In this document: in pieces, positions 7,056 to 63,458 of the stretch
How positions within the stretch are numbered: the first letter of the stretch is position 1
Layout: the number at the start of each line of letters is the position of its first letter
Source: Ginglymostoma cirratum
Taxonomy: Eukaryota
Assembly: GCA_024137785.1 (NCBI GenBank)
Contig: JAHRHZ010000271.1
Span: forward strand, 25,404,554-25,468,553
Direction: 5' to 3'
Length of the DNA: 64,000 nucleotides
The notes under the pieces: model-generated
Database searches by the model: none
What the model was told of the DNA's origin: nothing
The model's input: only the letters and a program-made list of their open reading frames with translations
Position numbers and translations under genes: made by a program

Positions 7056-7305
7056 TAAATACCGCTCCAATTTGAGTGAAGTGGCCAACTTTGCTCTCAG
7101 TGTAGGCCCTGCCTTGTGGTTCTTTGTCTTCTCTGAAGATGACATCAAGACACATGCTTCTCAAATGTTGGTGTCACTCCTGCAAAATCCTTTGTTCCAC
7201 TAAAATGTGTTCTGTTTCCGAAATGTCTCTGGCGCTCAGAACTCTGAATTGACCAAACCCTGATCGCAATATTCAATCCTAGCCTATGGAGTTAAATGTT
7301 TATAC

Positions 7306-7497
7306 AGTGTGGAGCTGGAGGAACACAGCAGGCCATGCAGCATCAGAGGAGCAGGAAAGTTGACGTTTTGGGTCAGTACCCTTCTTCAGAAAGAAGAAAT
7401 GTCAACTTTCCTGCTCCTCTAATGCTGCTTGCTATGTTGCTCCAGCTCCACACTGTGTTGTCTCTGACTCAAGCGTCTGCGGTTCTTGCTCTGTCCC
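7306..7497. mobile_element. Short palindromic PLE-derived insertion
   Basis: Two inverted copies of the PLE 3' end (gtgtggagctggaggaacacagc... / ...ctccagctccacactgtg). TSD AAATGTTTATAC at 7294-7305 and 7498-7509. Confidence 0.85.
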
Positions 7498-7579
7498 AAA
7501 TGTTTATACCGAGTCATAAACAGCCACATTCCATGCTTCATATAAGGTAATAGCTGTGCCAGTATGTCTAGCAAACCAC

Positions 7580-8920
7580 CATGACATCTCCCTTAATTGA
7601 TCAACATAGGAAATTGCATGGCACAGCACACAGGACAGGTCACAACATGATCTGGCTACAGTTTTAACCTTAGTCAGAGTTTAACCTAGCTTGACCAAAG
7701 TTCCCAGCATGCTTGATTATAACTTGTAACCATTTCTCCTGCTGGCCACCTGACCACAATTTCCTTCAATATCAGATACAGACTTTGGGAAGCAAACCTA
7801 AGAAATATAAATTTGAGCATGCTGTGCATAGATGGTGAAGCCAGTTCTGATTTGACCATGTCAAGCATTGTCTCATTCTCTTGCAAAATTACCAACTACT
7901 CTAGGATCCTCTAAAAGGATAAACGTAACCCAAAATACTTTATTTTCTCTGCAACCAAACACCACTTTTAACCTCTTTTTATTGAATGCACCTGCCTCTC
8001 CTTGAATATGAAGTGTGAGGAGCTTATGGACCTTCCATTTAGCTGTCATCATTCTTTATGACTCTTCCCTTTAATAGCCGTCCATAGACAAGGACAGGTT
8101 TCTACTTGTATCTTGGTGAAGCATACATCTTCCTCTGCATTATCATTATAGATCCATGCGCTTCTTCTGCGACATTCATGCTTGAGTGAATATAATTTTC
8201 TCCAGCTGAATGTAACTTTTTCCAGCTAAACATTAAAAGGACAGAAGCCGTTATATTTAGCCCCCCACCACAAATGCAGTATCTTTGCTACCTGACTAAT
8301 TTCAGCCTCTCTATCTGCTGCAGGGCTTAACCAGACTGCTTGCAACTTCAGTGTCCTGTTTTACCCTAATCTCATGTCTTCTCTACCTCTACTTGCCTCT
8401 ACTCCTTTTTCAGCCCAATATCCATTGCATGTATTGTTCATATTTTTGTTAATTACAGACTCAATTCTGCTAAGGTCCTCCTGGCCGATCTCATAGCCTC
8501 CCTCCTGTGAACGCATTAGATGATTCACACCCAGATTCTATCCTGCCAAAGACCCACTCTCAATCATCCTGGTCTTGCTGATGCACACTGCCCTTGCTGT
8601 GTTTAAATTTCTCCTTGGTTTCATCTCTCACTGTCTAATACAATGCCAACCCCACTTTCCCATGAATGCCTCATTCCTTTCAAGAAGCTCCTTGTATGAT
8701 ACCTCCTGCTTTCTTAATTTGTGGCTATGCTTCAGTGGTCTAGCTCCTTTACTCTGGAATTGCTTCACCATACTCTCTTCCACACCCCGCACACCTTTGT
8801 CTCTTGCTTCTCTTCAAAATCTGTTTTGGATTTTTGCTCACGTTTTCTTCGCCTTCTTTAGACCAGTGTCTCGTGATTCTTCATTATGCCTGTGTGATCC
8901 ACCTAGATTTTTTTAAGCAG
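7580..8920 (+). mobile_element. Highly degraded L2-like LINE
   Basis: Pyrimidine-rich plus strand with L2-like remnants (ccagactgcttgcaacttcagtgtcctgtt..; ttcagtggtctagctcctttactctggaattgc). Approximate boundaries. Confidence 0.45.
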
Positions 8921-9629
8921 TGAAACCAATGCATGAATGCAAATCATGGCTGCCAAAAGCTGTAGCCCATCACTGCATGTGCTGCCTTGAATTTTATTAA
9001 GTCACAGATTTCCATCGCAGTATTGGTTTATTGAGCAGACATAAAAAGTAAATACAATTGTGTTACAGATTGAATAAAAGCTTTTCTTAATTAATGAGGA
9101 AATGTGAGGGCTTAAGATGGATCTTAAAAGTTGTTAGTGCTGATAAAGTTTCAGAAATAAAGTGGCAGATGGTATCTGTAGCAAGAGTAATGATCTTAGC
9201 AGTATTTTTGTAAACCTTTTCCAATATCATAACATTTTTCTCAGCATGAAGGCAACACTCCCCATCTCTTCCCGCCTACATCAGTTGAACAGTGTCACTT
9301 CACCAGCATATCTTGATTGTTGCTCCTTCATGTCACCCATCTATTTCCGACATTGAAATAAAGTGAGCCCTTGCCTAAGTTTATTTATCACAAATCTTGC
9401 ATTCAAGGCAGAATAATGTATCAAATGCCTGGGACCCAATGTAAATATGGGCGTCTGGTAGCACTTGCTACAATGCAGAACACTTTCATGGAATGTTGGG
9501 AATTGTAATGAATTGTAAATGTGAGGTGTGAGGGGGGATGTTGAATGTTCTTCTTGAGCAGAGCCCCTAAGAATTCTTAATGCCATATCACAATTGAGCT
9601 GGAAACCTTTCCCTGCAATTCTGATTAGA

Positions 9630-10185
9630 ATTTTTTTTATTCATTCATGGGATGAGGGCGTCACTGACTAGGCAGCATTTATTGCCCATCCCTAATTGCC
9701 TAGAGGGCAGTTCAGAATCAACCATATTGCTGTGGGTCCGGACCCACATGTAGGCCAGACCAGGTAAGGATGGCAGTTTTCTTCCCTAAAGGACATTAGT
9801 GAACCAGATGGGTTCTTCCAACAATTGACAATGGATTCACGGCCATCATTAGACCCTTAATTCCAGATATTTATTGAGTTCAAATTCCACATCTGTCATG
9901 GTGGGATTTGAACCCAGGTCCCCAGAACATTATCTGGGTCAACAGAGATAACAAGCATGGGGCTGGATGAACACAGCAGGCCAAGCAGCATCACAGGAGC
10001 AGGAAAACTTGACGTTTCAGGCCTAAACCCTTAATCAGAAATGGGGGAGGGGAAGAGGGTTCTGAAATAAATAGGGAGAGAGGGGGAGGCGGATAGAGGA
10101 TGGATAGAGGAGAGGATAGGTGGAGAGGAGGCAGACATTATCTGGGTCTCTGGATTAACAGTCCAGTGATAATACCACTAGGTCA
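9630..10185 (-). mobile_element. tRNA-derived SINE, interrupted by a PLE fragment
   Basis: Minus strand has an A-box-like cctagtggtatt and B-box ggttcaaatccc head and an A-rich tail. Close copy at 24815-25141. Confidence 0.85.
9941..10134 (-). mobile_element. Single-arm PLE 3' fragment nested in a SINE
   Basis: Matches 44454-44620. TSD ACATTATCTGGGTC at 9927-9940 and 10135-10148 interrupts the host SINE. Confidence 0.88.
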
Positions 10186-10373
10186 ACTGTGCTCATCAAT
10201 TTGGTGGTCACAGTATCAAATCCCTGTGCCCCATTTACTCTAACCTGATTTGAAATCTTTATTTACAATTTTCTGATCAGTATAGTATAACTTATTGTTG
10301 TTAAATGCTGAAGTCTAAATTCACCTAAACACTGTATGTTGCTCTTCTTTTTTGGATTCTCTCTGATTTGCAG

Positions 10374-10564
10374 TTCACCTGTACAAGTGTGATGCACTGA
10401 GAGAAAGCTGTGGTCTTTGCCTGAAAGCGAACCAGAAGTTTGAGTGTGGCTGGTGTAGTGGTGAAGGACGATGTACTCTGAGGCAACATTGCCCCATTGC
10501 TGCTTCTCAATGGTTGGATCTGTCTAGCAAAAACATGAAGTGCACCAATCCTCGTATTACAAAA
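10374..10564 (+). CDS. PLXNA2: Plexin-A2 internal coding exon (PSI domain), phase 1-0
   Basis: ttgcag|TT CAC...ACA AAA|gtaaga. 191 nt: (V)[63 protein letters not shown], with the PSI cysteine pattern (CGLC, CGWC). Confidence 0.95.
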
Positions 10565-11589
10565 GTAAGAGAAATATTATTATTTTCTATTACTCCATGA
10601 TGCCCTGTGGCATCTGATGAATAGTGTTTGTTTTTAGCTGCTCCATGAGTGCCTGGTGAGTAATACTCTCAAATAACTTTTCCCTCAGATCCATTCTTCA
10701 CAAACTTTCACATGAAGCCTGGGATATAATACTCATTTTTTCCTAATTGTTTTCTTATTGAGTGTTGTAAATCTACCATGATTCAAATAAGACTTGAATA
10801 AGGTAGAAACCTTGCTGTCATAATAAGTTTGCTGACTGCTGCTAGTTGGCTTATAACCTGATAATGCAGAGGGGTCAACAAAAACATTATCTAACAATGT
10901 TAGCCATTTAGTTTTCATGAACGCTAACCTTGTTAGATAAACCAATTGTGAGCTTTTGCGTTTGTTGGTCACATATATTCTGCTCCAGTGCACAAACTCT
11001 AATTAAACTCTGTTCAAAGTGGGGAATCTAATTAGCCCAAATTGATTGGCTCATTATATAAATGTAACATTAAGAACCTTACCCAAGGTGACTGACTTAT
11101 GTGCAGGCCAGCCATTTTAACCAACCCATCACAAAAACACTTTTCCTAAGTACGAGTATAGCTTGCTTATTTGTTGACCCAAGATCTTAATATTGACAAA
11201 CTAATTTGTATTATAGCTTCGGTTTTACAGCATGTATATGTGCTGTCTAGCTTTATGAAGTACGATTGTTCTTCAGAGTTGTTTGGCCTGGCTTGTATGT
11301 GTTTATCAGTGCCTAATGCCAAATCCTCAGGGAAGATAACTCTAAAATGAGTATAAGCTAAGCATATGACGAGATAATGAGCCAAAGTCTTTTTTGTTAG
11401 CCCTTGCAACACTGAAACTTCAAGGATTTTGCAGCTGTAATTTACTGTCGTTCAATTTAAGAAATGCACCAGACAATCACCAGTTTTTTCAGACTTTCAC
11501 AACCTTTTGAAATAACATGATTGCTTGTATTGGTGTCCTAAATAATCTGTCTCCTTCATAATGAAATAAGTTTGGAGAATCCTTGAACG

Positions 11590-20553: not shown

Positions 20554-21153
20554 AGATAACAAGCATGGGGCTGGATGAACACAGCAGGTCAAGCAGCATC
20601 ATAGGAGCAGGAAAACTTGACGTTTCGGGCCTAAACNNNNNNNNNNNNNNNNNNNNNNNNNNNNNNNNNNNNNNNNNNNNNNNNNNNNNNNNNNNNNNNN
20701 NNNNNNNNNNNNNNNNNNNNNNNNNNNNNNNNNNNNNNNNNNNNNNNNNNNNNNNNNNNNNNNNNNNNNNNNNNNNNNNNNNNNNNNNNNNNNNNNNNNN
20801 NNNNNNNNNNNNNNNNNNNNNNNNNNNNNNNNNNNNNNNNNNNNNNNNNNNNNNNNNNNNNNNNNNNNNNNNNNNNNNNNNNNNNNNNNNNNNNNNNNNN
20901 NNNNNNNNNNNNNNNNNNNNNNNNNNNNNNNNNNNNNNNNNNNNNNNNNNNNNNNNNNNNNNNNNNNNNNNNNNNNNNNNNNNNNNNNNNNNNNNNNNNN
21001 NNNNNNNNNNNNNNNNNNNNNNNNNNNNNNNNNNNNGTTTAGGCCCGAAACGTCAAGTTTTCCTGCTCCTATGATGCTGCTTGACCTGCTGTGTTCATCC
21101 AGCCCCATGCTTGTTATCTCGGATTCTCCAGCATCTGCAGTACCTTTTATCTC
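20554..21153. mobile_element. Palindromic PLE-derived insertion with its centre in a 400-N gap (20637-21036)
   Basis: The visible ~83-bp arms are exact reverse complements. TSD ATTTACAGTTTGTA at 20540-20553 and 21154-21167. Confidence 0.85.
20637..21036. other. Assembly gap (400 N)
   Basis: Run of N. Confidence 1.
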
Positions 21154-27134: not shown

Positions 27135-27222
27135 ACCAGTCCTGAAGAAGGTTTAATTCTGAGTTCTCGCCACAGATGCTGTCAGACCTGCTGCAATTTT
27201 CCAGCAATTTCTGTTTTTGCTT
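27135..27222 (+). mobile_element. PLE 3' end fragment (second family), internally deleted
   Basis: ctgaagaagg..cacagatgctgtcagacctgctgcaattttccagcaatttctgtttttg, similar to 40325-40372. Confidence 0.7.
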
Positions 27223-27351
27223 CTGAGGCCAAAGATCCTGATTTATCGTTGGTATTTTCCAGTGCATAAAATTAAATTATTAACTTTAAGTACTTTCATT
27301 TTCATTGATTGCTAAGAGCAGCCTAGCTGGTGTTGTTGTTGCAGCCCTTAA

Positions 27352-34644: not shown

Positions 34645-34870
34645 GAATGCTGGATCGAGCTTAAAAAAAAAATGTTGGTAATACTTGACAGGTCCAGCAA
34701 CATCAATGGGGAGAGAAACAGAGTTAATGCGTCAGGTTGATGACTTTTCATCAGAACTAATCCAGATTTGATTTATAATAAAGGGTCATGGACTTGAAAA
34801 GCTAGCTCTATTTCTCTCTCCAGAGACATTGCTTGACTTGCTGTTCTGCCCATACCTTCGAATTTTTTTT
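34645..34870. mobile_element. Old, decayed palindromic PLE-derived insertion
   Basis: Minus arm reads gttCTGATGAaaagtcatcaacctgacgcattaactctgtttctctcc; plus arm reads gggtcatggacttgaaaagctagctctatttctctctccagagacattgcttgacttgctg. No clear TSD. Confidence 0.6.
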
Positions 34871-36048
34871 CAACTTTACTTAATATTATCAGCTTTTCAC
34901 ATAGATGGCTTGAATGGCTGTTTTTTCCCAACAAACAGGAATAATGAATGTGTCTTATTATTTTTCCAAACAAACAGAATCCTCTCTAAGAGCAGCCTGC
35001 AGTTTTGTTATTTTGACAGTAATGGATTTTATCTTTGAAACATGTCAAAAGGGGTGTTGCTAAATGACTTTCCTATTTTTAATATGAATTTTGTGAAAGG
35101 GGAAGGGCAGTGCCATCTGATTTTGGTGCTTGGTAGTAACTGGAATGGCACAATGGCATGTGCGAAGCCAACTCAACAGTTCTTCATTTCCATGTTAATG
35201 AGGTGAGTGCTTTAGGCGATTACCAATTCAGTGCATCATTCTTGAAAAGTGTAGTTTTATGGGATTTTGCAAGAAACGTGCAAAGCTGTAGTGACAAAAC
35301 TTCATTGCTAAAATCAATTCATGCCATTCATCAGCATCCAGTTCTTTCCTAAAGTGAGGAAATTAAGAACTCTGCATACATCATTAATTCAACTTCATTA
35401 ACTTAAAAACTCTATTGGATCTTTGACAAATTGTATGCTGTTAAAGCATATTATTCTTCCTTTTTTATTGCACTTTGCCTTTGGTTGAATGCTAATCACT
35501 TTAGTAGTACTGTTACTTTCAAGCAAGTAGTAACATTTAAAAGAACAATTGTCCAAGTTTTTTGTAAAAGTCTATTATTTTTTCGCAAGATGTGTGTTTT
35601 TTATTCTGTGAAATTCTTTTTGGAGTGGTTTAAGAGATGGGTTTGATTTTCCTGTTACTCTGTTTACTTGGCTGGTCTGCATTGCTTTGTTGTATGGAAT
35701 ATTACAAAATGTGAGACAAAGTGAAAGTTAATTGTAATAAATTGCTTTGTACTACAATCCCTTTCTTCCAGAGATAATCTTATAATTATATTTTCATGTT
35801 TTCTTTTTACTCTGTATAATTGAAATTCGCCATGTGCTACTTGCTGTAGGGGACAATTTGTTAGTTGTGCAGGAGTGTGACAGCAGCTTAATCTGTCCAG
35901 CTCTCTGCCAAGGAGCATTCATTTATTTCAGTAGAAAATGTCAGCGCAAAATTAGAAAGCAGCCATTTAACGGCAGATGCACATACAAGTGCTGGAAGGT
36001 GACATATGTTCTAATTCTGTGTTCTTACTTTCATGCTGCCTTTGACAG

Positions 36049-36166
36049 AATTGTGTGTGAAATGGGGGAGGCAAGGCCTCACAGAGAATCTGGTCCTGTG
36101 CAGCTCTGTGTTGGGGAGTGCAAGCCTGAATTTATGACAGAATCGTCGCAGCAGTATACCTTTGTG
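36049..36166 (+). CDS. PLXNA2: Plexin-A2 internal coding exon (IPT/TIG), phase 2-0
   Basis: tgacag|A ATT...TTT GTG|gtgagt. 118 nt: [39 protein letters not shown]. Confidence 0.95.
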
Positions 36167-36879
36167 GTGAGTTAATCTGAGAATGAGTGGCTGAATGGCC
36201 AATTGAGAAATATCACTCTTTCACAAAACCCATCCCAGGATGTAAAAAGTGAAATTAGCTTTCTTTGCTTTCGTACAGTCTACTGTAAATTTAGAAATAC
36301 TTCTATTCTGTAATAACTACATGATGCGATATCATCTAATGAGTGTTTTCTGATCTGTCTCTTTATTTTTTCTTTATGGTTTGGCCTTTCAATCTTTAAC
36401 TTAGTTTCCTGGGTGTCTGCTGCATTTTCATTTCAGTTATTCAGCCCTCGTTATAGTCATGATCAATTCTAGCTACAAGTTCTGACAGAAAAGACAGCAT
36501 TACAACTTTTATTGATGTTGTTGAGTGGCATCAGCATTTAATGTATTCAAAATGTTCCTCATTTCTGACTGTCCAGAAAACACTCATCTCCAAAGTCCTA
36601 ATCAGATTGCAAAAATCATTACTTTTTTTTCCATTTTTATGAAAAAAGATTGTGAAACTTTCTATATTTTTCAATTTATGGAGTGTTTAAAATCCAAAAT
36701 TAATGTCGATGACTTGTTGATTAAGTTTGCAACTTGACAGTGTTTCATGTTGTCTCTCTGTTATACTTTCTTGTAGCTTTTATTTCTCCTTCCCTCCCTG
36801 GCCAGATTTTCCCTTTCTGAAACTAAGTTTGGGGGAAAAGTGCATTGTTGTCAAATAACTTGCACCCCTCGCCTTATCA

Positions 36880-37130
36880 AAGAATCCTTACAGTGCAGGT
36901 AAAAGCCATTCGGCCCATCAAGTCTGCACCAACCCTTGAAAAGCATCACATCCAGACACACCCCACCTTTGGACTGTGGGAGGAAACCGGAGCACCTGGC
37001 AGAAACCCATGCAGACACAGGGAGAATGTGAAGACTCCACTCAGACAGTCACACAAGGCCGGAATTGAATATGGGGGTCACTGGCACTGAGAGACAGCAG
37101 TACTACCACTGAGTCATTCTGCCACCACCC
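36880..37130 (-). mobile_element. HE1-like V-SINE (elasmobranch), internally deleted
   Basis: V-domain ggaggaaaccggagcacc..gaaacccatgcagacacagggagaatgtg..ctccac, tRNA-like head at 37070-37128, CR1-like tail gccattcggcccatc. Confidence 0.8.
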
Positions 37131-37513
37131 TCCTAAAAGGCTCACAATAGTTCATGTGAATCAGCTTGTTGGGAGATGAACAGTGAGCTCCAGTGAGTTT
37201 CTTAGTCTATCACAGCCCCAACAACTAAGTTCCCCCAAATTCTTTCTGGTACTCAGACTTGAGGTCTGTGTGAGACAACAGCCTCTGAAAATGAAAGCCA
37301 GTGTGTCAGCATGCTGATCGCTGAGCAGGCGTGACCACACTGCTTCATGAGGGTCGAGAGTTCAGCAGGCTCTTGGTCGAACCCAGTATCCTGGTACTGT
37401 GAGGCAGCAGTGCCAAACACAGAGACATCGTGCTGCCTGAAAATTTGATGAATTTGTCAAGGTTCATTGCTAGCAGATAAAAGGTGTATGATATGCATAA
37501 ACCCATAGCATGG

Positions 37514-37535
37514 GTACGTACATACATACATACAT
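37514..37535 (+). repeat. (TACA)n microsatellite
   Basis: gtacgtacatacatacatacat. Confidence 0.7.
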
Positions 37536-38554
37536 TTAATGCCTTCGTGTACGAAAATATTGATTTCCCTGAGGGTCATTGGAGGCCTTCAGGAATCCTT
37601 GTGAAAGGTGAAATCTAACATTTCTGGGCCATTAAAAATAATGAAATAACCAAATTGTCCAAACAAAATTTATTTTGTGTTAAATAAGGTTATCATTTCA
37701 ATTTATGCTGATGTATGGGAGACATTTGTTGTCATTTTTGAATTTTGGAATTTCAATATCCTGCATAAACAGGCTAAACTGTATTTTCCTCGAATGCATC
37801 TACCTCAAGCTCCGAGTGTTTTCATAACTTCTCGGTTTCCTCCAAGTTAGATGTATTTCTCAAACCATCAAAGAATATTTCGATTCTTTGATTAGCATTA
37901 CAGTGAGTGCGTGATTCAGTTCTGATGAAGCAAATTTGACTGACACTGCTTAAAATTATTCAGTATGCCTTTGGTAATACACACAAGATTTGGAACCATG
38001 TTGAGAGAGTGAGAGCAAACCAAGTAGATTTGTTTCAAATTGCCTTTTTTTTTCCCAAAAACGTCAGAAGCTATTATTTATTTTTGTTAGTTAGCCATTT
38101 AACGAGAGAGAACAAAAGTGAAGGGTGTGCAATACTTTCCAAGGCACTTATGGTAATTTGTTTATTATCTTTTCTTATAAAGATAATACAGCTCCAAATG
38201 AAATACTGAGTTGCAAAACCAACTGTATAATTCAAGCTGTTACTGCTGGTGGTAAAAGTTAATGAATGAAAAAGAGGGCAGTCATTGAAAGTATTCTTTT
38301 CAAACCTTCAAAGGTGACAGCCATCAGAGATATGTATATATCACTGGGTGCCCTTGGGAAAGGAGAAGAAGGGAAGTTAATAAATGTAAGCCAAGGATCT
38401 TTGGTTTTCTTATCGCAAGAGTGACACATCATGAAAAGAATTTGTATGATAGTATCAGTTAGGGTAAACTGGAGAAGTGATATTATTTGTTAATCCATCT
38501 TTTAACATATTTCTCTTTAAAGTATGATTTTGCTTTCTCTTTTCCTTTGCGCAG

Positions 38555-40155: not shown

Positions 40156-40171
40156 ATTGTGTGATGAATTG

Positions 40172-40409
40172 AGAACAAAAACAAAATTGCTGGAGAAGCT
40201 GAGCTGGTCTAGCAGCATCTGTGGAGGAGAAAACAGAGTTAACGTTTCGGGTCCGGTGACCCTTCCCCAGAACAGTTTTGAGGAAGGGTCGCCAGACCTG
40301 AAACGTTAACTCTGTTTTCTCCTCCACAGATGCTGCCAGACCTGCTGAGCTTTTCCAGCAACTTTGTTTTTGTTCCTGATTTACAGCATCCGCAGTTCTT
40401 TTGGTTTTT
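40172..40409. mobile_element. Short palindromic PLE-derived insertion (second family)
   Basis: ~100-bp inverted arms around cagaacagtt, each with a (mutated CTGAGGA)-AGGGTC..GACC-GAAACGTT hammerhead-like motif. TSD ATTGTGTGATGAATTG at 40156-40171 and 40410-40425. Confidence 0.88.
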
Positions 40410-42205: not shown

Positions 42206-44505
42206 TTGTAGCATTTGAGACAACATACAAGGCAAATACAGTATGTTTAAAAGTTGGAAATAATATTCAAATGTGTGAATCAGAATTTAACGTTGGACTT
42301 TGAGCATTGTGTGAGGTTAAATTTACTTTAATTTCTAAATTTAAATAGGTGTCTCTGTCTTTATTATATTTGATCACAACCCATTTATTTTAGAGCCCAA
42401 GGTACAAAAGTCTCTCCATTGCATGTTTGTAAAGTAAACCAAACAAAATGAATTAGACTAATTTCAATCCAGTCTCCTGACTGTATTATTAAAGAGAAAT
42501 TGAAAAAATGTATTCCAAGTTGACCATTTGATGGCTGGTTTCTCTTTCTGTGAATTTGAGATAAAGTAAGTTGCCTTGAAGAAATTCCAGTGGGAGTCCT
42601 GAAATGCATCCGTCTCCTTGCTTCAAAGAGCCAAAATATTATATTCCTCCACAACTAACCCTCACAGCTCAGTTTAAAAATGAAGCTTTTATCTTTTGAA
42701 GTAAGGTCTATATTTTCACCATTTTGCATGGGAGGACTTATCTTCCAGTGACTTCTTACAACCAACAGGGCTGCTTGATCTTGGAACTGCAGTTCCTTTG
42801 TTCCAAGTTCAAAACATCCTCAATGGCTATAGGGAATTGATCTTACGAACTGAGTCTTTAAAAAGCAGGTGGAAGGCACTGCACATGGCACTGGTGGTGA
42901 AACTGGCCAATGTTAGTGAGGTGTTTTAATTTATTTCTGTTACTCCACTAAGAGGACGGAAGCATGCTCTCTTGTCACTATGCTAGTGCTCAAGCTTCCT
43001 CAGAGGCAGTGTCAGCAGTTACACTCATGACTACCGAATTTTGAAGAAATTTCTCGCACTGTTGTGAAATAAGATCCTTGCTGTGTTTAGATAAGTTATC
43101 ATTTATTGTGTTAATTTGCTTTCAGATATTGGATTTTGTGGCTGTCAGCATTTTTACTGCGACAGCTACATTTCAGTGACAAAAAGACTGAGAATAGTCT
43201 CTTGAGAATTAAACAGGAACGTGTCATATGGCTGTAACCAAATCACATTATCTTGACGATATCAAAAATCATTGGAACTGATCGTATTGTTACTGAAACG
43301 TTGTGATTCGGTTATACACTTTAACTAGTTCCAGCGCAAAAAATGTGCTGTGTTCTTGGTTAAGATTGAAGAGTTTGCTGTCTTCAGTTTTCCAGTGTTA
43401 CTGCAGAACCCAGTGATATTTAAAGAATATTATTTTTTGACATTACAGGTAAATGTTTAGGTTGTAGAAATTCTAGGTATGGGATATACTGGAATGCAAT
43501 TCTAAAGCTGAATTAAAAAAAAGTCTACAAATTTATTATTCTATTTCTACTTCAAGCAATAGAAAATTGCAGACAGGTAACTTGCAGGTGATAATGGTTG
43601 ATAAATTTGCAAAGATTTAAATGACCCTTAAAGATATTCAGGAATTTGATGTTTTTATTGCTTGGTAATTGCAGAAGCAGCTTGAATGTGGAAGACATAA
43701 AGCGAGGGAAATTTAATTTGTTTGCAAAATGCAACATACCTTGGCCAGTGCTGATTCAGAACAAGAAGTGCCATGTGTCCTATGTGCAGCTATTGACTAA
43801 CGCAATATATTAAGGAAAGATTCAGTCTGTACACAGGCACAGAACAGTATGTTAGTCAATAAACTCCTAATATAGAACCGATCTGTATTCCATTAGAAAT
43901 AATGTGGTTTGATTTCTGGCTGAGCGCCGCAGGCTGGAAGAGTTTAATGAGATCCACACTAATTACAGCTTTCTATTTTCAATCTCCTCTGATGAACAGA
44001 GTTGAACAGAATAGAATTACATGAAAATAGTCCTGACAGGCTAATAATAATCTGAATAGCTAATTACTGAAGAATCCGGAGTACCTCAGACGGGTGGCAG
44101 TAGCACAAGATACAGTCTTTACTATAATATGTATCTGACCGTAATGCCATTTGGGTCGCCCGAGGCTTCCAGGATACCACAGCAGTTTTCCTGGAGTGTG
44201 TTCAATGCATTCCATACTTATTAATGTTCTTTCTCATATTCTACATTGGAAAACCCCTGCATCACAGTAATAGTCTTGGAACATAATAGACTATCACTGT
44301 GATAGTGCATTACATTAATGATTCCCTTTGCAGTGCTTATGACTGGGGTCTGCTTTCATTGAATGTAATAATTGCAGTTCTTATCGATCAGTATGCACTA
44401 CTCATCTCATGCAGTTGCAATTGCAGTATGTAAGCAAATGTCCAATTTATAAGAGATAACAAGGTGTGGAGCTGGATGAACACAGCAGGCCGAGCAGGAA
44501 ACCTT

Positions 44506-44533
44506 GACGTTTCGGGCCTAGACCCTTCTTCAG
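44506..44533 (-). ncRNA. Minimal type I hammerhead ribozyme motif in PLE terminal repeat (left arm)
   Basis: Reverse complement reads CTGAAGA-A-GGGTCTAGGCCC-GAAA-CGTC. Confidence 0.7.
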
Positions 44534-44869
44534 AAATGGGGGAGGGGAAGAGGGTTCTGAAATAAATAGGGAGAGAGGGGGAGGCGGATAGAGGAGAGGA
44601 TAGGTGGAGAGCAGGCAGACAAGTCAGAGGCAGGGATGGAGCCAGTAAAGGTGAGTGTAGGTGGGGGGATAGGGAGGAGATAGGTCAGTCCAGGGAGTAC
44701 GGACAGGTCAGGGGGGTGGGATGATGTCAGTAGATAGGAGATGGGGGTGGGGCTTGAGGTGGGAGGAGGGGACAGGTGAGAGGAAGAACAGATTAGGGAG
44801 GCGGGGATGAGCTGGACTGGTTTTGGGATACGGTTGGGGGAGGGGAGATTTTGAAGCTTGTGAAATCCA

Positions 44870-46065
44870 CATTGATACCATCGGGCTGCAGGATTCCCAG
44901 GCTGAATATGATTTGCTGTTCCTGCAGCCTTCGGGTGGCATCATTGTGGCATTGCAGGAGGCCCAGGATAGACATGTCATCTGAGGAATGGGAGGGGGAG
45001 TTGAAATGGTTCGTGACTGGGAGGTGCAGTTGTTTGTTGCGAACTGAGCGCAGGTGTTCTGCAAAGCAGTCCCCAAGCGTCCGCTTGGTTTCCCTGATGT
45101 AGAGGCGGCCATAACGGGTACAGCGGATGCAGTATACCACATTGGCAGATGTGCAGGTGAACATCTGCTTGATGTGGAAAGTTTTCTTGGGGCCTGGGAT
45201 TGGGGTGAGGGAGGAGGTGTGGGGGCAGGTGTAGCACTTCCTGCGGTTGCAGGGAAAAGTGCTGGGTGTGGTGGGGCTGGAGGGACAAGGGAGTCACGGA
45301 GGGAGTGGTCCCTCCAGAAAGCAGACAAGGGTGGGGAGGGAAAAATGTCTTTGGTGGTGGGGTCGGACTGCAGATGGCGGAAGTGTCGGAGGATGATGCG
45401 TTGTATACGGAGGTTGGTGGGGTGGTATGTGAGGATGAGGGGGATTCTTTTTTGGTTATTATTGCGGGGATGGGGTGTGAGGGATGAGTTGCGGGAAATG
45501 CGGGAGACACGGTTGAGGGCGTTCTCGACCACTGTGGGGGTGAAGTTGCGGTCCTTGAAGAATGAGGATATCTGAGATGTGCGGGAGTGGAATACCTCAT
45601 CCTGGGAGCAGATGTGGCGGATGCGAAGGAATTGGGAATAGGGGATGGCATTTTTGCAGGAAGTTGGTGGGAGGAGGTGTATTCCAGGTAGCTGTGGGAG
45701 TCAGTGGGCTTGAAATGGACATCGGTTTCTAGGTTACCTGAGATGGAGACAGAGAGGTCCAGGAAGGAGAGAGAAGTGTTGGAGATGGTCCAGGTGAACT
45801 TCAGGTTGGGGTGGAAGGTCTTGGTGAAGTGGATGAACTGTTCGAGCTCCTCGTGGGAGCACGAGGCGGCGCCCATACAGTCATCAATGTAACAGAGGAA
45901 GAGGTGGGGTTTAGAGCCAGTGTAGGTACGGAAGAGGGATTGTTCCACGTAACCTACAAAGAGGCAGGCATAGCTTGGGCCCCTGTGGGTACCCATGGCC
46001 ACCCCCTTTGTCTGTAGGAAGTGGGAGAAATTGAAAGAGAAGTTGTTGAGGGTGAGGACGAGTTC
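44870..46065 (-). pseudogene. PLE reverse transcriptase (C-terminal half) plus GIY-YIG endonuclease, frameshifted
   Basis: ELVLTLNNFSFN..QTKGVAMGT..GPSYACLFVG..YIDD..FHPNLKFT..FLD..KPTDSHSYL (RT and thumb), then VVYCIRCTRYGRLYIRETKR..EH (GIY-YIG). Spread over three reading frames. Confidence 0.9.
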
Positions 46066-46640
46066 CACCCCACCAACCTCCGGATCCAACGCATCATCCT
46101 CCGACACTTCCGCCATCTGCAATCCGACCCCACCACCAAAGACATTTTTCCCTCCCCACCCTTGTCTGCTTTCCGGAGGGACCACTCCCTCCGTGACTCC
46201 CTTGTCCCTCCAGCCCCACCACACCCGGCACTTTTCCCTGCGACCGCAGGAAGTGCTACACCTGCCCCCTCACCCCAATCCCAGGCCCCAAGAAGACTTT
46301 CCACATCAAGCAGATGCTCACCTGCACATCTGCCAATGTGGTATACTGCATCCGCTGTACCCGTTGTGGCCTCCTCTACATTGGGGAAACCAAGCGGAGG
46401 CTTGGGGACCGCTTTGCAGAACACCTGCGCTCAGTTCGCAACAAACAACTGCACCTCCCAGTCGCAAACCATTTCAACTCCCCCTCCCATTCCTCAGACG
46501 ACATGTCCATCCTTGGCCTCCTGCAATGCCACAATGATGCCACCCGAAGGCTACAGGAACAGCAAATCATATTCAGCCTGGGAACCCAGCAGCCCAATGG
46601 TATCAATGTGGATTTCACAAGCTTCAAAATCTCCCCTCCC
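46066..46640 (+). pseudogene. PLE linker plus GIY-YIG endonuclease (second, inverted copy)
   Basis: HPTNLRIQRIILRHFRHLQSDPTTKDIFPSPPLSAFRRDHSLRDSLV, a frameshift, then TCTSANVVYCIRCTRCGLLYIGETKRRLGDRFAEH...LGTQQPNGINVDF. The CxxC between the GIY-like and YIG motifs is typical of Neptune-type PLEs. Confidence 0.9.
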
Positions 46641-46944
46641 CCAACCGCATCCCAAAACCAGCCCAGCTCGTCCCCGCCTCCCTGTCGTGTTCTTCCTCTC
46701 ACCTATCCCCTCCTCCCACCCCCATCTCCTATCTACTAACCTCATCCCGCCCCCTTGACCTGTCCGTCCTCCCTGGACTGACCTATCTCCTCCCTACCCC
46801 CCACCTACAATCACCTTTACTGGCTCCATCCCCGCCTCTTTGACTTGTCTGCCTGCTCTCCACCTATCCTCTCCTCTATCCATCTTCTATCTGCCTCCAT
46901 TTCTCTCCCTCTTTATTTCGGAACCCTCTTCCCCTCCCCCATTT

Positions 46945-46972
46945 CTGAAGAAGGGTCTCGGCCCGAAACGTC
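46945..46972 (+). ncRNA. Minimal type I hammerhead ribozyme motif in PLE terminal repeat
   Basis: CTGAAGA-A-GGGTCTCGGCCC-GAAA-CGTC: CUGANGA and GAAA core boxes, GC-rich stem II, palindromic ACGT stem III, GUC cleavage triplet. Stem I is weak. Confidence 0.7.
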
Positions 46973-47794
46973 AAGGTTTCCTGCTCCTATGATGCTGCTT
47001 GGCCTGCTGTGTTCATCCAGCTCCACACCTTGTTATCTCGGATTCTCCAGCATCTGCAGTCCAATTTATAAGCTGTGGGAATTCTTTTTTGATGTGCAAT
47101 AAGAGTGGGAGAATGCCAATATTTTATTCTGGAGTCTTGATACCAACTTCTGAAAGTTTTGCGCAATTAACATGAAATTGACCTCAGCAATTTACAAGTT
47201 AATTTTTTTGAAATTCCTCAAAACAACTTGATGGAAGAATTAAAGAGACAGGCTGATGTAGCAATGAAATATCATGTGCATTCTGTATTCACCAAACATA
47301 CTGATCAATGTTAGGGAGATTGAATTGTACAGGATAAAAAATGTAAATGAGAATATAAGATTGTGCATTATTTTGCATGTGTATATAATATATATGGGAG
47401 GGGAAATTTACTTTTAAGATTAGCATTTATGTGCAGTGAACTGTGTCAGAATGTTGCCAGAATTTTTTTTTTATTTATATAAGATTCACAATGCAATCTG
47501 TGTGTTTGAGATTTGCTTTGTGAAAGTGCCATTTTACTGCAACATATCTAGATCACAGCAAGTGAAGAGGATGCTAAGTAGCATTCATACTTCTGCTATA
47601 CTCGTTAATTCAATGCTATTACAATGACACGGCTGTTCCTTAAAGCTTTTCTCTGTCCAGTTGATGCAGTTAGGAGCTTTCATCTCAATAAGGAGGCTTC
47701 TACATGTTTATATAAAGTCAGTTATGCACGTGAGCTTAAGGGTAAATGGGTGATTGATATTGAATGATAAATTATCTTGAGACCATATTGGGGG

Positions 47795-57057: not shown

Positions 57058-57655
57058 GAGATAAAAGGTACTGCAGATGCTGGAGAATCCGAGATAACAA
57101 AGTGTGGAGCTGGATGAACACAGCAGGCCAAGCAGCATCATAGGNNNNNNNNNNNNNNNNNNNNNNNNNNNNNNNNNNNNNNNNNNNNNNNNNNNNNNNN
57201 NNNNNNNNNNNNNNNNNNNNNNNNNNNNNNNNNNNNNNNNNNNNNNNNNNNNNNNNNNNNNNNNNNNNNNNNNNNNNNNNNNNNNNNNNNNNNNNNNNNN
57301 NNNNNNNNNNNNNNNNNNNNNNNNNNNNNNNNNNNNNNNNNNNNNNNNNNNNNNNNNNNNNNNNNNNNNNNNNNNNNNNNNNNNNNNNNNNNNNNNNNNN
57401 NNNNNNNNNNNNNNNNNNNNNNNNNNNNNNNNNNNNNNNNNNNNNNNNNNNNNNNNNNNNNNNNNNNNNNNNNNNNNNNNNNNNNNNNNNNNNNNNNNNN
57501 NNNNNNNNNNNNNNNNNNNNNNNNNNNNNNNNNNNNNNNNNNNNGGGCCTAGACCCTTCATCAGATGAAGGGTCTAGGCCCGAAACGTCAAGCTTTCCTG
57601 CTCCTATGATGCTGCTTGGCCTGCTGTGTTCACCCAGCTCCACGCCTTGTTATCT
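57058..57655. mobile_element. Palindromic PLE-derived insertion containing a 400-N gap (57145-57544)
   Basis: Inverted arms with visible centre gggcctagacccttcatcagatgaagggtctaggccc. TSD CAGT(A/G)GTTTTTCTCA at 57043-57057 and 57656-57670. Confidence 0.85.
57145..57544. other. Assembly gap (400 N)
   Basis: Run of N. Confidence 1.
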
Positions 57656-58812: not shown

Positions 58813-58919
58813 GTAAGTCATGGATTGATGTAAACTGTTTCTGTTTGATACAGAATTACATTCATGCACCAAGTCCTGGTTTGTGTGTTCAATGGTGTAA
58901 CAGTGCTGCTGAATCACAG

Positions 58920-59860
58920 ACACCTGCCATTCCACCAGCATTCACGCCCAGAGAGCCATTAGCCACCACTTCCGCTATCTCCAGCAGGATGCCACCACCA
59001 GACACACATTCCCTTCACCTCCCTTGTCAGCTGTGTGCAAAGACCATTCCCTCTGGGACACCCTGGTCTACTCTACTTCCACTCCCAACAGCCCCATGGC
59101 ACCTTCCCCTGCAACTGCAGAAGGGTAACACCTGCCCACTTACTTCCTCCCCCCTTCATATCTGAGGGCTCAAACATACCTTCCAGGTGAAGCAGCACTT
59201 TATCTGCACTTCACTCAATCTAGAGTACTGCATTCACTGCTCACGATGTGATCTCCTCTCTATTGGGGAAGCAAAGTGTAGACTGGGTGACCATTTTGCA
59301 GAACACTGACATTCTGTCTGCAAAAAAGACCTTTAATTTCCAGTTGTCTGCCAGTTCAACACACCACCTGGTTGCCTAGCCAGCATCTCTCTCTCTCAGA
59401 CTTGCTGCGGTACTCCAGCGAACCTCAGTGCAAGTTGGAAGAATTGCACCTTATTTTCTGCTTGGGAACCCTACAACCTTCGGGACTCAATATCAAATTC
59501 AACAATTTTAGGGTTTGAGGCACCTTCTCCCATGTTCTTACCCCAATCCCCACATACCAGGTCTTGTTATCACATGGTCTGTTATTACACACAACCCATT
59601 GTTAGCCATTAATAGTCCCCATTGGTAGCTATTCATTCCTCTATCCAATTGTTTTTCTGTCTCTCTGGGATCTAACTCCACATGTTGTTTGCTTCTTACC
59701 CTCTAACCCCAACCTATCTTTTGCATAAAAAACAATGTTTTCCTATCCAGGATTTGTTCTGAGGAAGGGTCACTGGACCCAAAATATTAACTCTGATTTC
59801 TCTCCTCAGATGCTGCCAGACCTGCTGAGCTTTTCCAACAAATTCTGTTTCTGTTTTTGA
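58920..59860 (+). mobile_element. Older Neptune-type PLE 3' portion (linker, GIY-YIG, 3' UTR, second-family tail)
   Basis: HSTSIHAQRAISHHFRYLQQDATTRHTFPSPPLSA, HGTFPCNCRR and YCIHCSRCDLLSIGEAK are homologous to 46066-46640. Ends in CTGAGGAAGGGTCACTGGACCC tail as at 40278-40375. Confidence 0.85.
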
Positions 59861-60639
59861 TTGATAGTTGCATCGTTTCAATCTCACATAGTTCCTCACT
59901 TGATTGTAGCATATTGAGGAAGATTTTCAATTAAGTTGATTGTGAAGTGCTGACAGGTTAGGATAAGAATTTTCTTTGAGGTATAGACATTAGCCTAGGC
60001 TTTGGAATGAGAAAATCTCCTGCAGTAGAGGATGTCCACCACAAGAATAATCCACCTTCTCCCTCCTGCTGCGAACGCCACTGACTGGAGAATGGGGTTG
60101 GAGGTTGTGAAATTGCACCTTTTGAGTATCTGCCATAGTAAGTTGGAGGAACTGGCTCAGCCATCTGCCTGGCTGTGTACATCCACCAGTTACATTAATG
60201 GTGATTTCCACTGGTGGCAGGAGCGTTCGCACTGATGCCAGTCTTTCCTCTGAGTTTGGCCATCTTCCTTCTATTAACGTGTCAGCTTGTCCAGTAAAAG
60301 TGATCTGGCTTGGTGGATGCTCTTTTGCCTGGTTGTGGACAGATATGGGGCGACAAAACATAATGGGCAGGGTGAAACTGACAGGACAGAGATGGGAACA
60401 AAAGCAAAATTCCGCAGATGGTGAAAATCTGAACTAAATAATACTCTTCAAAATACAAGGTTTCATCAGAATACTGCAGCATGATTTTGTCCAAACAGCC
60501 AACCAGAATTTGTATTAATGTTTTGCATAACCTAGTAAGTATTATAAGGCATAATGGATGTTTGGAGCCATTATTTATTGCTTACTGTCATAAATAATAT
60601 AAATGTAGAGGAGCATAAGAAGCAGTATTTTAAATATTC

Positions 60640-60873
60640 AGAGATAACAGGAACTGCAGATGCTGGAGAATCTGAGATAACAAGGTGCAGAGCTGGATGA
60701 ACACTGCAGGCCAAGCAGCATCAGAGGAGCAGGAAGGCTGATGTTTCAGGCCTGAGCAGCATCAGAGGAGCAGGAAGGCTGAAGTTTCGGGCCTAGACCC
60801 TTCTGTCAGCCTTCCTGCTCCTCTGACGCTGTTTGGCCTGCTGTGTTCATCCAGCTCTGCACCTTGTTATCTC
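60640..60873. mobile_element. Short palindromic PLE-derived insertion with internal ~41-bp tandem duplication
   Basis: Inverted arms (aaggtgcagagctggatgaacac / gtgttcatccagctctgcacctt). TSD ATTTTAAATATTC at 60627-60639 and 60874-60886. Confidence 0.87.
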
Positions 60874-61794
60874 ATTTTAAATATTCCGTTCCACAGTAAT
60901 CCTTAAATCCAGTCAAAAAACAATAAGCTGCAATTTCAGGATGATGCACTGCAGCAATGTGGAATGCAGAAAAGTTAATGCATTTTGTGCAAAATCCTCA
61001 GCTTTTAGATTCACACAGAGAGGGTTAATGGAATTTCTTTATCTCCTTAATGGTGTTTAATGGAAGATTAACTTTAGACAAAAGAGCCTTTGTCAGCATA
61101 AAGAGAAATGAAACTCAGGATGAGAGAAAGAGAAATCTATGTAGATTTAATTTTGTATTTTATCTTTGGTCATTCTTTAATTAAGTAAATTAGCTATTTC
61201 CTCTCTGTAAAAAAAAAACTCGTGGGAGTTTGCTTGACTCTGGTGAATTGACCGTATGGAATTTCAATTCAATATCTGGAATGTTCAGTTTTGCTTCAGC
61301 TCACAGGATCTCATTTGTGGAGTGTACTCATGCTAGGAAATTTAGTTCAAATTAACTTTCCCTAGAGGAAAAGTGAAATGAAAAATAAAGCTTACTGTAC
61401 ATCAAACTATATTTTGGGTACATCCTTGTAGCCTGTAAGGATATTGATTTTCTTTAATATAGAAAGGAAAGGTATCACTGCAGTGTTTTGAAGACTAGAG
61501 GGAACATAGCATTGATCTGGTGTGTTCACGTAATTTGCAGCACAGTTTAGTTCCTATGTCTTATTATAAAACACAATCAATATGTGAGCACCATTTACAG
61601 AATTTATAGGCAGAATCCTATGCCATCCTCTGTGGGTTTGATAGTGGATGGGGGTGGGGAAGTGTTCAATTGAGTGGGAGTGTGGTGAGTGAGGACCCCA
61701 CAGCCTTTTGCTCCTACCTCCCACACCCCCGATGCCAGGGGTGAGGTGAGGGGAGAGCTCCTGGGTGATCTTACTACCCTGCCACCTTTTTCTT

Positions 61795-61895
61795 TTTCTT
61801 TATTCATTCACAGGATGGGGGCGGGGGGGGGGGGCGGCAGCACTGGCTAGGCAGCACTTATTGCCCAGAAGGCAGTTAAGAGTCAACCACATTGC
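61795..61895 (-). mobile_element. 3' fragment of the same SINE family
   Basis: tttattcattcacaggatg..cactggctaggcagcacttattgcccagaaggcagttaagagtcaaccacattgct. Confidence 0.75.
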
Positions 61896-62029
61896 TATAG
61901 AGGCATTTTACCTATTGAGGCATTTAAGTGAACAATGAAGAAGCTCATCCAGCCAGCAAAGGGATTTAGCCCAGAGGTGAGTGGGTGACTCACCGGTTGG
62001 GAAGCCCAACAAACAAACCCAGTGGTGTG

Positions 62030-62219
62030 ATAACACGATATGGAGCTAGAGGAGCAGTAAAATTGATGTTTCGGGTCAGGACCCTTCTTTTTCTGAAGAA
62101 GGGTCCAGACCCGAAACATCAACTTTCCTGCTCCTCTGATGCTGCCTGGCCTGCTGTGTTCCTCCAGCTCCATACTGTGTTAACTCTGATTCTAGCATTT
62201 GCAGTTCTAACTGTCCCGT
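62030..62219. mobile_element. Short palindromic PLE-derived insertion
   Basis: Inverted arms around acccttctttttctgaagaagggt. Hammerhead-like CTGAAGA-AGGGTCCAGACCC-GAAA-CATC at 62093-62120. TSD AACCCAGTGGTGTG at 62016-62029 and 62220-62233. Confidence 0.85.
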
Positions 62220-63458
62220 AACCCAGTGGTGTGTTAGCTTGTGGGCTCTCATGTTGGGGGGAGGTGCGTTTACTTTCAGAGGCACTCAGTGATTGAGGAA
62301 TGCAGAATGGGGGAGGGGCGAACCAGCGGCTGGACTCTCTTTCACCTCCCATCACCAGTAGCCTGCGTTCCCTCCTCAATCTGAGACCTCAAGTGGGTAT
62401 GATACTGGCATCAGCCACCCCTACCCTTCTGGCACTGATGAATCCAAAAGATTGGCCAGCAGCTCTCAGTGCATGAGAGTTCCACTGTGGGTAATGGTCA
62501 CTTACTGTGAGTGGCCAGTTAATGGCACGCTGAGACAGGTGGACTCTGAAAGCTGAGGGGGTCATTTGGATGCCTTCCAGCTCAAAAGTTGCAGCAGGAT
62601 GCTGTGAGGTAAATGGGGCTAAGGGTACTTGGAAATGTTGGAGTCCCCTTCTCCAACTTCTTGAAAATCCCAATACAAAATCGCTGCCACTGTGCAGGGT
62701 GGGCCTCTAAGCCTAGTTAGAGTACCAGTTTGGTGACTGCCTCCAGGCAATCAGGGAACTTGCAGGCCAATGGGGAAAGCCCACTTCAATTTGTCTGAAG
62801 TAACTCTATAGAGATGCACCCACTCAAACCCTCTGTGACCCCTCCCCCTGAAAAATGGCCTGGGACAGGTTGGAAGTGTAAAATTGATACGTTGACTTGG
62901 GTTACTATTTTGAGCACCTACCCATCACTGATCTAGGCCCTAGTGGAGGTTGAAAATCCTGCCCAAACTCCTTGATGTTTTAGACTTTGGTTTTATTTTG
63001 CATTCTGTGTAAAAGGTATCTTGCTGATAGGTGAGATGATTGCTAATCTTGAAAATAGCTTGCTCTGCAAAAAAAGCTCGCAGGAAATGTCAGTGGTGCT
63101 GCAGAGTGAATCGCCAAGATATATGTCTCTACAATTTGTAGGCATAATTGCTATACTGTTAATTATTATTACTTACAGTACAGTGACTATTTTTCTATTA
63201 CATTCACTATGAATAGAGCTGTATGACTCTCTTTTAGAATATTAGTGACTTTTGAGGGCTACCAGTTTTCAAATAGCTCTGAAGTAATTCCAAAAGTAAT
63301 GAGTGTAAGCATTTTGCTTTGCTTTAATGTATATATTTCTTACAACATTATGTATTTGACATTGATGAAAAGTTCAGGTTATAAAGTAGAATGTTCCAAA
63401 TTTTGGAAGTGTAAGCAATATTTCAAAACTTAAATTTTGCTTTTTGGTTCTGCGCCAG

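What the first reader, a model, noticed from the sequence alone, without database searches (positions are those of the whole stretch)
7294..62233. Recurrent class of short fold-back insertions made of two inverted Penelope 3' ends, each with a long TSD and a hammerhead motif at the hinge
Seen: six independent insertions (7306-7497, 20554-21153, 40172-40409, 57058-57655, 60640-60873, 62030-62219) plus a decayed one (34645-34870). They are near-palindromes with no visible coding sequence. The six are bracketed by different 12-16-bp direct repeats, and where the centre is visible the symmetry axis lies at or within the CTGANGA..GAAA motif. They come from at least two unrelated tail families, each linked in this window to a coding Neptune-type PLE (44454-47058 and 58920-59860). 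Established: PLEs can have inverted pseudo-LTRs and carry minimal hammerhead motifs. Inference: these look like MITEs but are retro-products. They are either a non-autonomous hairpin/retrozyme-like class that copies itself, or the stereotyped product of PLE integration in which both target ends prime on the 3' end of the RNA and the two cDNAs join near the ribozyme. About one per 9 kb here suggests a very large genome-wide class. I cannot tell whether it has been described for sharks.
Basis: partly seen in the sequence, partly recalled or inferred. Interest (0 to 1): 0.85.

Follow-up and report, generated by a model that had tools for sequence, protein, structure and literature searches.

The report
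Ribozyme-bounded Penelope fold-back insertions
These hairpin-shaped DNA insertions, about 200 bases long, are real and very common in this shark-like genome; each is two back-to-back copies of the end of a Penelope jumping gene, likely made afresh at every insertion when both cut DNA strands copy the element's RNA up to a predicted RNA start beside its ribozyme.

Summary
Observation confirmed, with corrections: two of the six centres are N, and the two tail families are homologous. In 1.23 Mb elsewhere in the genome I found 72 short head-to-head pairs and 16 more across N gaps; tail-to-tail neighbours numbered 0. TSDs centre on 14-15 bp, and a related species has the empty site for 60640. The inverted arm plus one-sided 34-nt tail is the known Penelope-like (PLE) insertion pattern, and this scan saw it before in other genomes. 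The pairs are not a self-copying family: 69 of 72 junction keys differ, and one exact hinge (183 copies) carries its tail on either side. Not found in my paper searches: arm 5' ends pile up 3 nt before the hammerhead core, not at its cut site, in paired, solo and ORF-linked copies. A TATA-like box and an initiator-like motif sit there in both families. The tail-less arm is usually the longer one (41 vs 18), which argues against single-cDNA fold-back. Best model: both nicked strands prime internally on PLE RNA, the cDNAs run off a transcript start at the ribozyme, and they are end-joined. The RNA start is untested. Verdict: new variant of a known kind.

The parts
7306..7497 (.). Fold-back, A2 subfamily; tail-less left arm reaches ribozyme position -3, tailed right arm starts at +20; 12-bp TSD 7294-7305/7498-7509
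20554..21153 (.). Young fold-back, family A; arms 100% complementary over the 83 visible bases; centre is a 400-N run; tail on right; 14-bp TSD 20540-20553/21154-21167
34645..34870 (.). Decayed fold-back of a more distant B-like tail; ribozyme core on the minus strand at 34754; TSD doubtful
40172..40409 (.). Fold-back, family B; both arms end at the 5' edge of helix I (axis at 40274); tail on right; perfect 16-bp TSD 40156-40171/40410-40425
44454..47058 (.). Long fold-back of the same family A: minus arm 44454-46017 (RT remnant, Zn-finger-like linker, GIY-YIG; tail-less) and plus arm 46018-47058 (GIY-YIG; tailed); 14-bp TSD 44440-44453/47059-47072
   Evidence: PF01541 above cutoff; RVT_1 E=0.0015, below cutoff
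44560..44568 (-). TATA-like box starting 35 nt before the ribozyme core, 31 nt before the initiator-like A (predicted promoter)
   Evidence: consensus motifs recalled
44533..44539 (-). Initiator-like YYANWYY with its A at ribozyme position -4 (44537); same bases as the 5' strand of helix I; arm 5' ends pile up here
46942..46975 (+). Minimal type I hammerhead motif: CTGAAGA, extra A, helix II, GAAA, palindromic ACGT, cut triplet GTC
   Evidence: compared with PMC4209133
57058..57655 (.). Fold-back, family A; tail on left; 400-N run; hinge palindrome visible just after the gap; 15-bp TSD 57043-57057/57656-57670; this exact 27-nt hinge has 77 matches in the genome
58920..59862 (+). 5'-truncated family B PLE remnant with GIY-YIG-like piece and ribozyme (core at 59759); tail-less; no inverted arm or TSD found
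60640..60873 (.). Fold-back, family A, with an internal duplication; tail on left; 13-bp TSD 60627-60639/60874-60886; empty site with a single TSD copy in a related species
62030..62219 (.). Fold-back, A2 subfamily; hinge +3/-3; tail on right; 14-bp TSD 62016-62029/62220-62233; both junctions also present in the related species

Best explanation
Each fold-back is two head-to-head copies of the pLTR end of an endonuclease-bearing Penelope-like retrotransposon, likely built afresh during one integration event rather than copied from another hairpin. Inferred steps: (1) The PLE protein nicks both target strands about 14 bp apart, which gives the TSD. (2) Each 3'-OH primes reverse transcription inside uncleaved PLE RNA, one at the far end of the 34-nt tail and one at its near end, so exactly one arm has the tail. 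(3) The RNA is predicted to start at the first bases of hammerhead helix I (TATA-like box plus initiator), so cDNA primed about 95 or 130 nt downstream runs off the RNA 5' end, like a strong-stop cDNA. (4) The tail-primed cDNA often stops earlier, sometimes right after the tail. (5) The two cDNA ends are joined by microhomology or with short inserts. The products lack the upstream TATA-like box and would be dead ends. Priming at the 3' pLTR of long RNAs would give the long versions such as 44454-47058.
For: Shown here: tail on exactly one arm in 62 of 72 short pairs; tail-less arm longer in 41 vs 18 (3 ties, p=0.004); 69 distinct junction keys among 72; 30 overlaps, 39 inserts, 3 blunt joins. 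Tail-only arm in 10 of 72. Per-base stop rate at -5..-3 is 0.117 (A) and 0.207 (B), against 0.003-0.009 (A) and 0.006-0.04 (B) upstream, with no peak at the cut site. Pooled mode at -3 is 43 arms, with 0-2 per position from -8 to -20. The same edge appears in solo arms and in 4 of the 7 ORF-linked copies that reach the ribozyme, among 20 fetched. TATA-like box in 57 of 62 long arms and initiator-like motif in 61 of 62; the pair occurs once per long reference, against a background of 0.13 per kb per strand. The identical B hinge has 183 copies; in 30 loci the tail is right 17, left 10, neither 3, and same-side and opposite-side identities are equal (0.869 vs 0.870; within locus 0.894). Partner arms share rare alleles in family A, 38 of 221 vs 9.7 expected. 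Empty site in a related species. Published: the Anolis PLE protein nicks and extends both strands, starts at two internal sites that bound the tail, and does not need ribozyme cleavage (PMC11167929).
Against: No RNA 5' end was observed; only assembled contigs were available. No excess of an extra G upstream, as copying of a cap might give. The mode is -3, while the initiator A is at -4, and family A arms often lack that A. The initiator-like bases double as helix I, so their conservation is not independent evidence. A and B are homologous, so they are one conserved case, not two. In D. virilis the start lies about 120 nt upstream and an intron ends at helix I (PMC2377424, PMC4209133). Family B has an AG at -4/-3 with a branch-point-like motif. 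Rare-allele sharing in B is weak (16 of 190 vs 9.5) and could reflect gene conversion. In 18 of 59 pairs the tailed arm is longer, which fold-back also allows. Junction overlaps come from a local aligner and were not compared with a null.
Confidence: 0.58

Rival explanations
1. Same de novo dual priming, but the boundary is a reverse-transcription block or template-release point set by the folded or protein-bound (possibly dimeric) hammerhead on longer RNA, not the RNA start.
For: The boundary coincides with the edge of helix I; no cap-G signal; the PLE protein assists the ribozyme in vitro (PMC11167929); minimal hammerheads are proposed to pair as dimers (PMC4209133).
Against: RT stalls are expected at the 3' side of a structure (general knowledge, recalled), and no peak is seen there. 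The motif folds no better than shuffles (z from -0.55 to 1.15). The TATA-like box at promoter spacing is unexplained by this reading.
Confidence: 0.22
2. Self-priming fold-back: one cDNA, or an antisense template, snaps back at the ribozyme's palindromes and is copied into the second arm (as proposed by Arkhipova et al. 2013).
For: Young arms are nearly identical (N-gap pairs 0.976); short palindromic overlaps recur at hinges; the tailed arm is longer in 18 of 59.
Against: A copied arm must be nested in the first arm, yet in 41 of 59 pairs the shorter arm carries the tail that the longer arm lacks, and in 10 of 72 one arm is the tail alone.
Confidence: 0.09
3. The boundary is a splice acceptor, as in D. 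virilis Penelope, and short arms come from spliced or splicing-intermediate RNA.
For: The intron end maps to the 5' end of helix I in D. virilis (PMC4209133); family B has branch-like CTGAC, a pyrimidine tract and CAG just before -2.
Against: Family A has no AG at that place. Solo arms share no upstream exon: longest match to upstream PLE sequence is mostly 5-8 nt, like controls (mean 6.2); pairwise matches of 7 nt or more are 0 of 136 (A) and 4 of 528 (B).
Confidence: 0.06
4. A non-autonomous hairpin or retrozyme-like family that copies itself as a unit.
For: Exact hinges recur: 183 copies of one B hinge and 77 of one A hinge.
Against: These are a small share of an estimated 10^5 elements. 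With an identical hinge the tail falls on either side (17 vs 10), loci belong to different subfamilies, and there are no left- or right-arm lineages. 69 of 72 junction keys differ.
Confidence: 0.04
5. Assembly artefacts at hairpins.
For: 16 of 24 400-N gaps in the sample lie inside head-to-head pairs, and some show duplicated edges.
Against: Diverged arms (mean 0.91 in A, 0.84 in B), one-sided tails, TSDs, an empty site in a related species, and both junctions of 62030 in that species.
Confidence: 0.01

Closest known systems
Inverted pLTR plus 30-40-bp tail of EN+ Penelope-like elements (Craig 2021 PMC8557442; Arkhipova 2013 PMC3846280; Schostak 2008 PMC2377424; passages read)
   Same: Head-to-head 5'-truncated inverted copy, tail at one end only, TSD, palindromes at the inverted junction, assembly trouble; a putative TATA plus initiator was noted in a rotifer pLTR.
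   Different: Here most units have no ORF, about 190 bp median and about 10^5 copies; TSDs are 13-16 bp rather than 8-10; arm ends pile up at the 5' edge of the ribozyme, which I did not find reported.
Anolis Poseidon (PAc) in vitro reaction (Frangieh 2024 PMC11167929; parts 1-2 of 4 read)
   Same: Both strands nicked and extended; two internal RT starts bounding the tail about 110-150 nt after the ribozyme; uncleaved RNA used.
   Different: Different clade; the parts read do not treat inverted dimers, joining of two cDNAs, or the RNA 5' end.
Minimal hammerheads of PLEs, including opposite-strand pairs 100-700 bp apart in Schistosoma (Cervera and De la Pena 2014 PMC4209133; results and discussion read)
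   Same: Same minimal motif with the extra A and palindromic 15.2-16.2; opposite-strand pairs and many solo motifs noted.
   Different: The pairs were only mentioned there; no TSD, tail or hinge analysis.
Animal non-LTR retrozymes (bioRxiv 10.64898/2026.07.22.740005; part 1 and passages read)
   Same: Non-coding, hammerhead-bearing, derived from PLE pLTRs; found in a chondrichthyan.
   Different: Retrozymes are tandem direct repeats with proposed circular intermediates; these are inverted, dispersed, and not bounded by the cut site.
L1 twin priming (recalled, not read)
   Same: Both target strands prime on the RNA, giving an inversion within a TSD; the 10 of 72 tail-only cases have this anatomy.
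   Different: Most units here duplicate the same segment on both arms, with fixed priming sites and no poly(A).

Membership tests
EN+ Penelope-like element insertion | Linked RT and C-terminal GIY-YIG endonuclease in the parent element | tested here: met
   PF01541 above cutoff; RVT_1 weak, E=0.0015 and below cutoff; same tail as the short units
EN+ Penelope-like element insertion | Inverted 5'-truncated copy with a 30-40-bp tail at one end only | tested here: met
   62 of 72 short pairs; 3' ends bimodal near +92-97 and +126-131
EN+ Penelope-like element insertion | Target site duplication made on insertion | tested here: met
   41 of 72 and 12 of 16 vs 0 of 145 controls; empty site with one copy
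EN+ Penelope-like element insertion | pLTR also lies 5' of the ORF (partial tandem) | tested here: met
   L004 and 1,548 exact tail-to-5'UTR junctions
Neptune clade | Zn-finger-like linker between RT and EN (shared with Nematis) and placement in an RT tree | tested here: inconclusive
   CxxxxCxxC linker seen in translations; no tree was built
Minimal type I hammerhead | CUGANGA, extra nucleotide, G-C-closed helix II, GAAA, palindromic helix III, UH | tested here: met
   All features in 51 of 97 A arms and 9 of 63 B arms; helix II 0.93 and 0.78 paired. Rfam gave no hammerhead hit at E up to 5
Minimal type I hammerhead | Self-cleavage | not testable with these tools
   Needs an in vitro assay
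Non-LTR retrozyme | Tandem direct repeats of ribozyme units bounded by cleavage | tested here: not met
   Same-strand neighbours 4 vs head-to-head 73; no stop peak at the cut site
MITE (non-autonomous DNA transposon) | Symmetric terminal inverted repeats, short fixed TSD, uniform copies | tested here: not met
   One-sided tail, TSD 10-18 bp, lengths about 107-244 bp, 69 of 72 distinct junction keys

The most novel reading that the evidence does not exclude
In shark PLEs the transcript begins exactly at the hammerhead. Internal priming in the 5' pLTR then yields strong-stop-like cDNAs on both nicked strands, and their end-joining has left about 10^5 dead-end hairpins. These would form a fossil record of two-sided priming by a PLE dimer and explain both the inverted pLTR and the one-sided tail.
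Probability: 0.45. Interest if true: 0.68.

Novelty: new variant of a known kind. Interest (0 to 1): 0.45.

Why it matters
How PLEs make their inverted repeats and tails is called open in the papers read (PMC8557442, PMC3846280). This class gives thousands of independent events with measurable arm ends. The arm-length asymmetry favours two priming events over self-priming, and the sharp 5' boundary gives a precise prediction for 5'-RACE and for the existing in vitro system. On the practical side, the elements look like MITEs or miRNA precursors (sub-threshold Rfam miRNA hits), and young copies coincide with two-thirds of the 400-N gaps sampled.

Tried and rejected
Rfam scan: no hammerhead family hit, only sub-threshold miRNA hairpins. 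Random sampling: 5 of 8 random 100-kb blocks read entirely N and were dropped; 20 of the 23 blocks analysed were then placed beside known tail hits, which inflates density (1 per 12 kb vs 1 per 26 kb in the 3 random blocks). Cleaved RNA as template: rejected, no stop peak at +28/+30. Cap-derived extra G: not seen. Shared spliced exon upstream: not seen. Target motif: TSDs 62% AT vs 59% background, no clear motif apart from few G at the first position and more A at the last (59 TSDs). Monomer folding: no better than shuffles. RNA 5' ends: only Logan contigs exist, so untestable; the loose-end pile at 62090 is caused by the reference itself and was not used. Loci for the 77 family A hinge matches were not obtained, so the tail-side test rests on family B alone. 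The 9 arms at -78 are a reference-length artefact. One short pair is counted twice across a gap (C17), and L218/L219 are one element. Paper searches found no description of this short class in sharks or of a start at the ribozyme. Repbase, Dfam, Arkhipova 2006, Evgen'ev and Arkhipova 2005, and the supplementary figures of PMC11167929 could not be seen and may bear on novelty.
Full report
OBSERVATION. The six insertions exist as described, each with its own 12-16-bp flanking direct repeat. Two have 400-N centres. One arm of each carries about 34 extra bases, the PLE 'tail'. The two tail families, A (with subfamily A2) and B, are homologous. The coding element 44454-47058 is itself a long fold-back with a 14-bp TSD, a GIY-YIG domain and a weak RT match, so short and long forms lie on one continuum. 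Positions below count the C of the hammerhead CTGA as 0.

GENOME SAMPLE. I analysed 23 blocks holding 1,228,609 real bases outside the window: 3 random blocks and 20 placed beside known tail hits. Five further random blocks were all N and were dropped. The search found 400 arms including the window's. Outside the window there are 72 short head-to-head pairs, 16 pairs across N gaps and 17 longer candidates, of which only 6 pass the TSD test. TSDs pass in 41 of 72 and 12 of 16, against 0 of 145 shuffled controls, with a mode of 14-15 bp. Neighbouring arms within 60 nt are head-to-head 73 times and tail-to-tail 0 times. Density is 1 per 14 kb overall and 11 in 283 kb in the random blocks, so about 10^5 copies genome-wide is an extrapolation.

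REAL INSERTIONS. Contigs of a related species (two samples, one study) run directly from 60626 to 60874, the empty site with one TSD copy. The same species holds both junctions of 62030, so that insertion is older than the split. Sixteen of 24 400-N gaps sit inside head-to-head pairs, and the gapped pairs have nearly identical arms (0.976). Young hairpins therefore break the assembly rather than being invented by it.

NOT A SELF-COPYING FAMILY. Among 72 short pairs there are 69 distinct junction keys; one of the three doubles is the same element on both sides of a gap. One exact family B hinge has 183 copies. In 30 of these loci the tail is on the right in 17, on the left in 10 and unresolved in 3. 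Arms on the same side of different loci are no more alike than arms on opposite sides (0.869 vs 0.870), while partners within a locus are more alike (0.894). So the same hinge forms repeatedly, from different subfamilies.

ARM ANATOMY. Arm 3' ends are bimodal, near +92-97 and +126-131. Exactly one arm is tailed in 62 of 72 pairs. The tail-less arm reaches further upstream in 41 pairs, the tailed arm in 18 (p=0.004). In 10 of 72 the tailed arm is the tail alone. A single cDNA folding back cannot put a tail on the copy that the template arm lacks, so most units need two priming events on RNA. The tail continues into the 5' UTR and ORF start in L004 and in 1,548 exact copies, so priming is likely internal. 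This matches the in vitro Anolis work, where both strands are nicked and extended, RT starts at two sites bounding the tail, and ribozyme cleavage is not needed (PMC11167929).

THE 5' BOUNDARY. Arm 5' ends peak at -3 (43 arms pooled; 24 at -2; 14 each at -4 and -5; 0-2 per position from -8 to -20). The per-base stop rate at -5..-3 is 0.117 in A and 0.207 in B, far above upstream rates, and there is no peak at the cut site. At least one arm ends within -7..+1 in 52 of 72 pairs. The same edge is seen in solo arms and in 4 of the 7 ORF-linked copies that reach the ribozyme, among 20 fetched; the other 13 stop further downstream or at N. Long arms carry a TATA-like box starting at -35 (A) or -33 (B) and an initiator-like YYANWYY with its A at -4. 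The pair occurs once per long reference, against 0.13 per kb per strand in background (consensus motifs recalled). I infer that the transcript starts at helix I and that cDNAs run off its end. Against this: no cap-G excess, the initiator bases double as helix I, the D. virilis start lies further upstream with an intron ending at helix I (PMC2377424; PMC4209133), and no raw RNA reads were available. A splice reading fails for want of an AG in family A and of any shared upstream exon. An RT block by the ribozyme remains the main rival.

COMPARISON AND NOVELTY. The inverted copy, one-sided tail, TSD and junction palindromes are described PLE features (PMC8557442; PMC3846280), and opposite-strand minimal hammerheads were noted in Schistosoma (PMC4209133). 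Two earlier notes of this scan on other shark-type genomes called the pattern real but ordinary; my tests agree on that much. My ten paper searches did not find the ORF-less minimal form as a mass class, the boundary at helix I with a candidate core promoter, or the arm-length asymmetry. Repbase, Dfam and several older papers were not searchable. Papers seen: PMC11167929 parts 1-2 of 4 plus a supplement term search; PMC4209133 outline, results and discussion; PMC8557442, PMC3846280 and PMC2377424 as passages; bioRxiv 10.64898/2026.07.22.740005 part 1 and passages; all others as listings only.

VERDICT. A real, abundant by-product of PLE integration and a new variant of a known kind. De novo formation at each insertion is about 0.9 likely; the full model with the RNA start at the ribozyme about 0.58. 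Interest 0.45, or 0.68 if the RNA start is confirmed.

Noticed in passing
window 60534-60957, run X2: A contig with no mismatches to the window joins 60647 to 60852, skipping 204 nt of the hairpin interior; either RT skipping of the hairpin during library preparation or a deletion allele.
   Followed up: no
L243, L245, L246, L248, L256, L257, L258: 7 of 20 ORF-linked 5' pLTR copies start at about +68 to +86, and several tailed arms of short pairs start at +63 to +72: a possible second boundary, unexplained.
   Followed up: partly
L004:1130-2500; G000 C77 block 35609-38326: Internally deleted PLE units (ORF start fused to the endonuclease end, or 5' UTR fused to 3' UTR) flanked by pLTRs and inverted arms; candidates for true non-autonomous PLE derivatives.
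   Followed up: partly
sample blocks: 19 of 24 400-N gaps have a PLE arm within 60 nt and 16 lie inside head-to-head pairs; at least two gaps have perfect inverted edges made of non-PLE-tail sequence.
   Followed up: partly
window 493-586 (+), 9945-10137 (-), 27136-27226 (+): Solo tail-less arms of the same families; genome-wide, solo short arms are about as common as paired ones in family B (66 vs 63).
   Followed up: partly
window 61720-61900: Another high-copy repeat, probably a shark SINE (name recalled, not tested), seen as deep coverage.
   Followed up: no
window 7342-7423, 60748-60839: The hairpins score as sub-threshold miRNA precursors in Rfam, a likely source of false miRNA annotation.
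   Followed up: no
several family A arms: Arms scored as starting at +4 look like -3 starts with one triplet slipped out of the CTGAWGA core, so the -3 peak may be undercounted.
   Followed up: no
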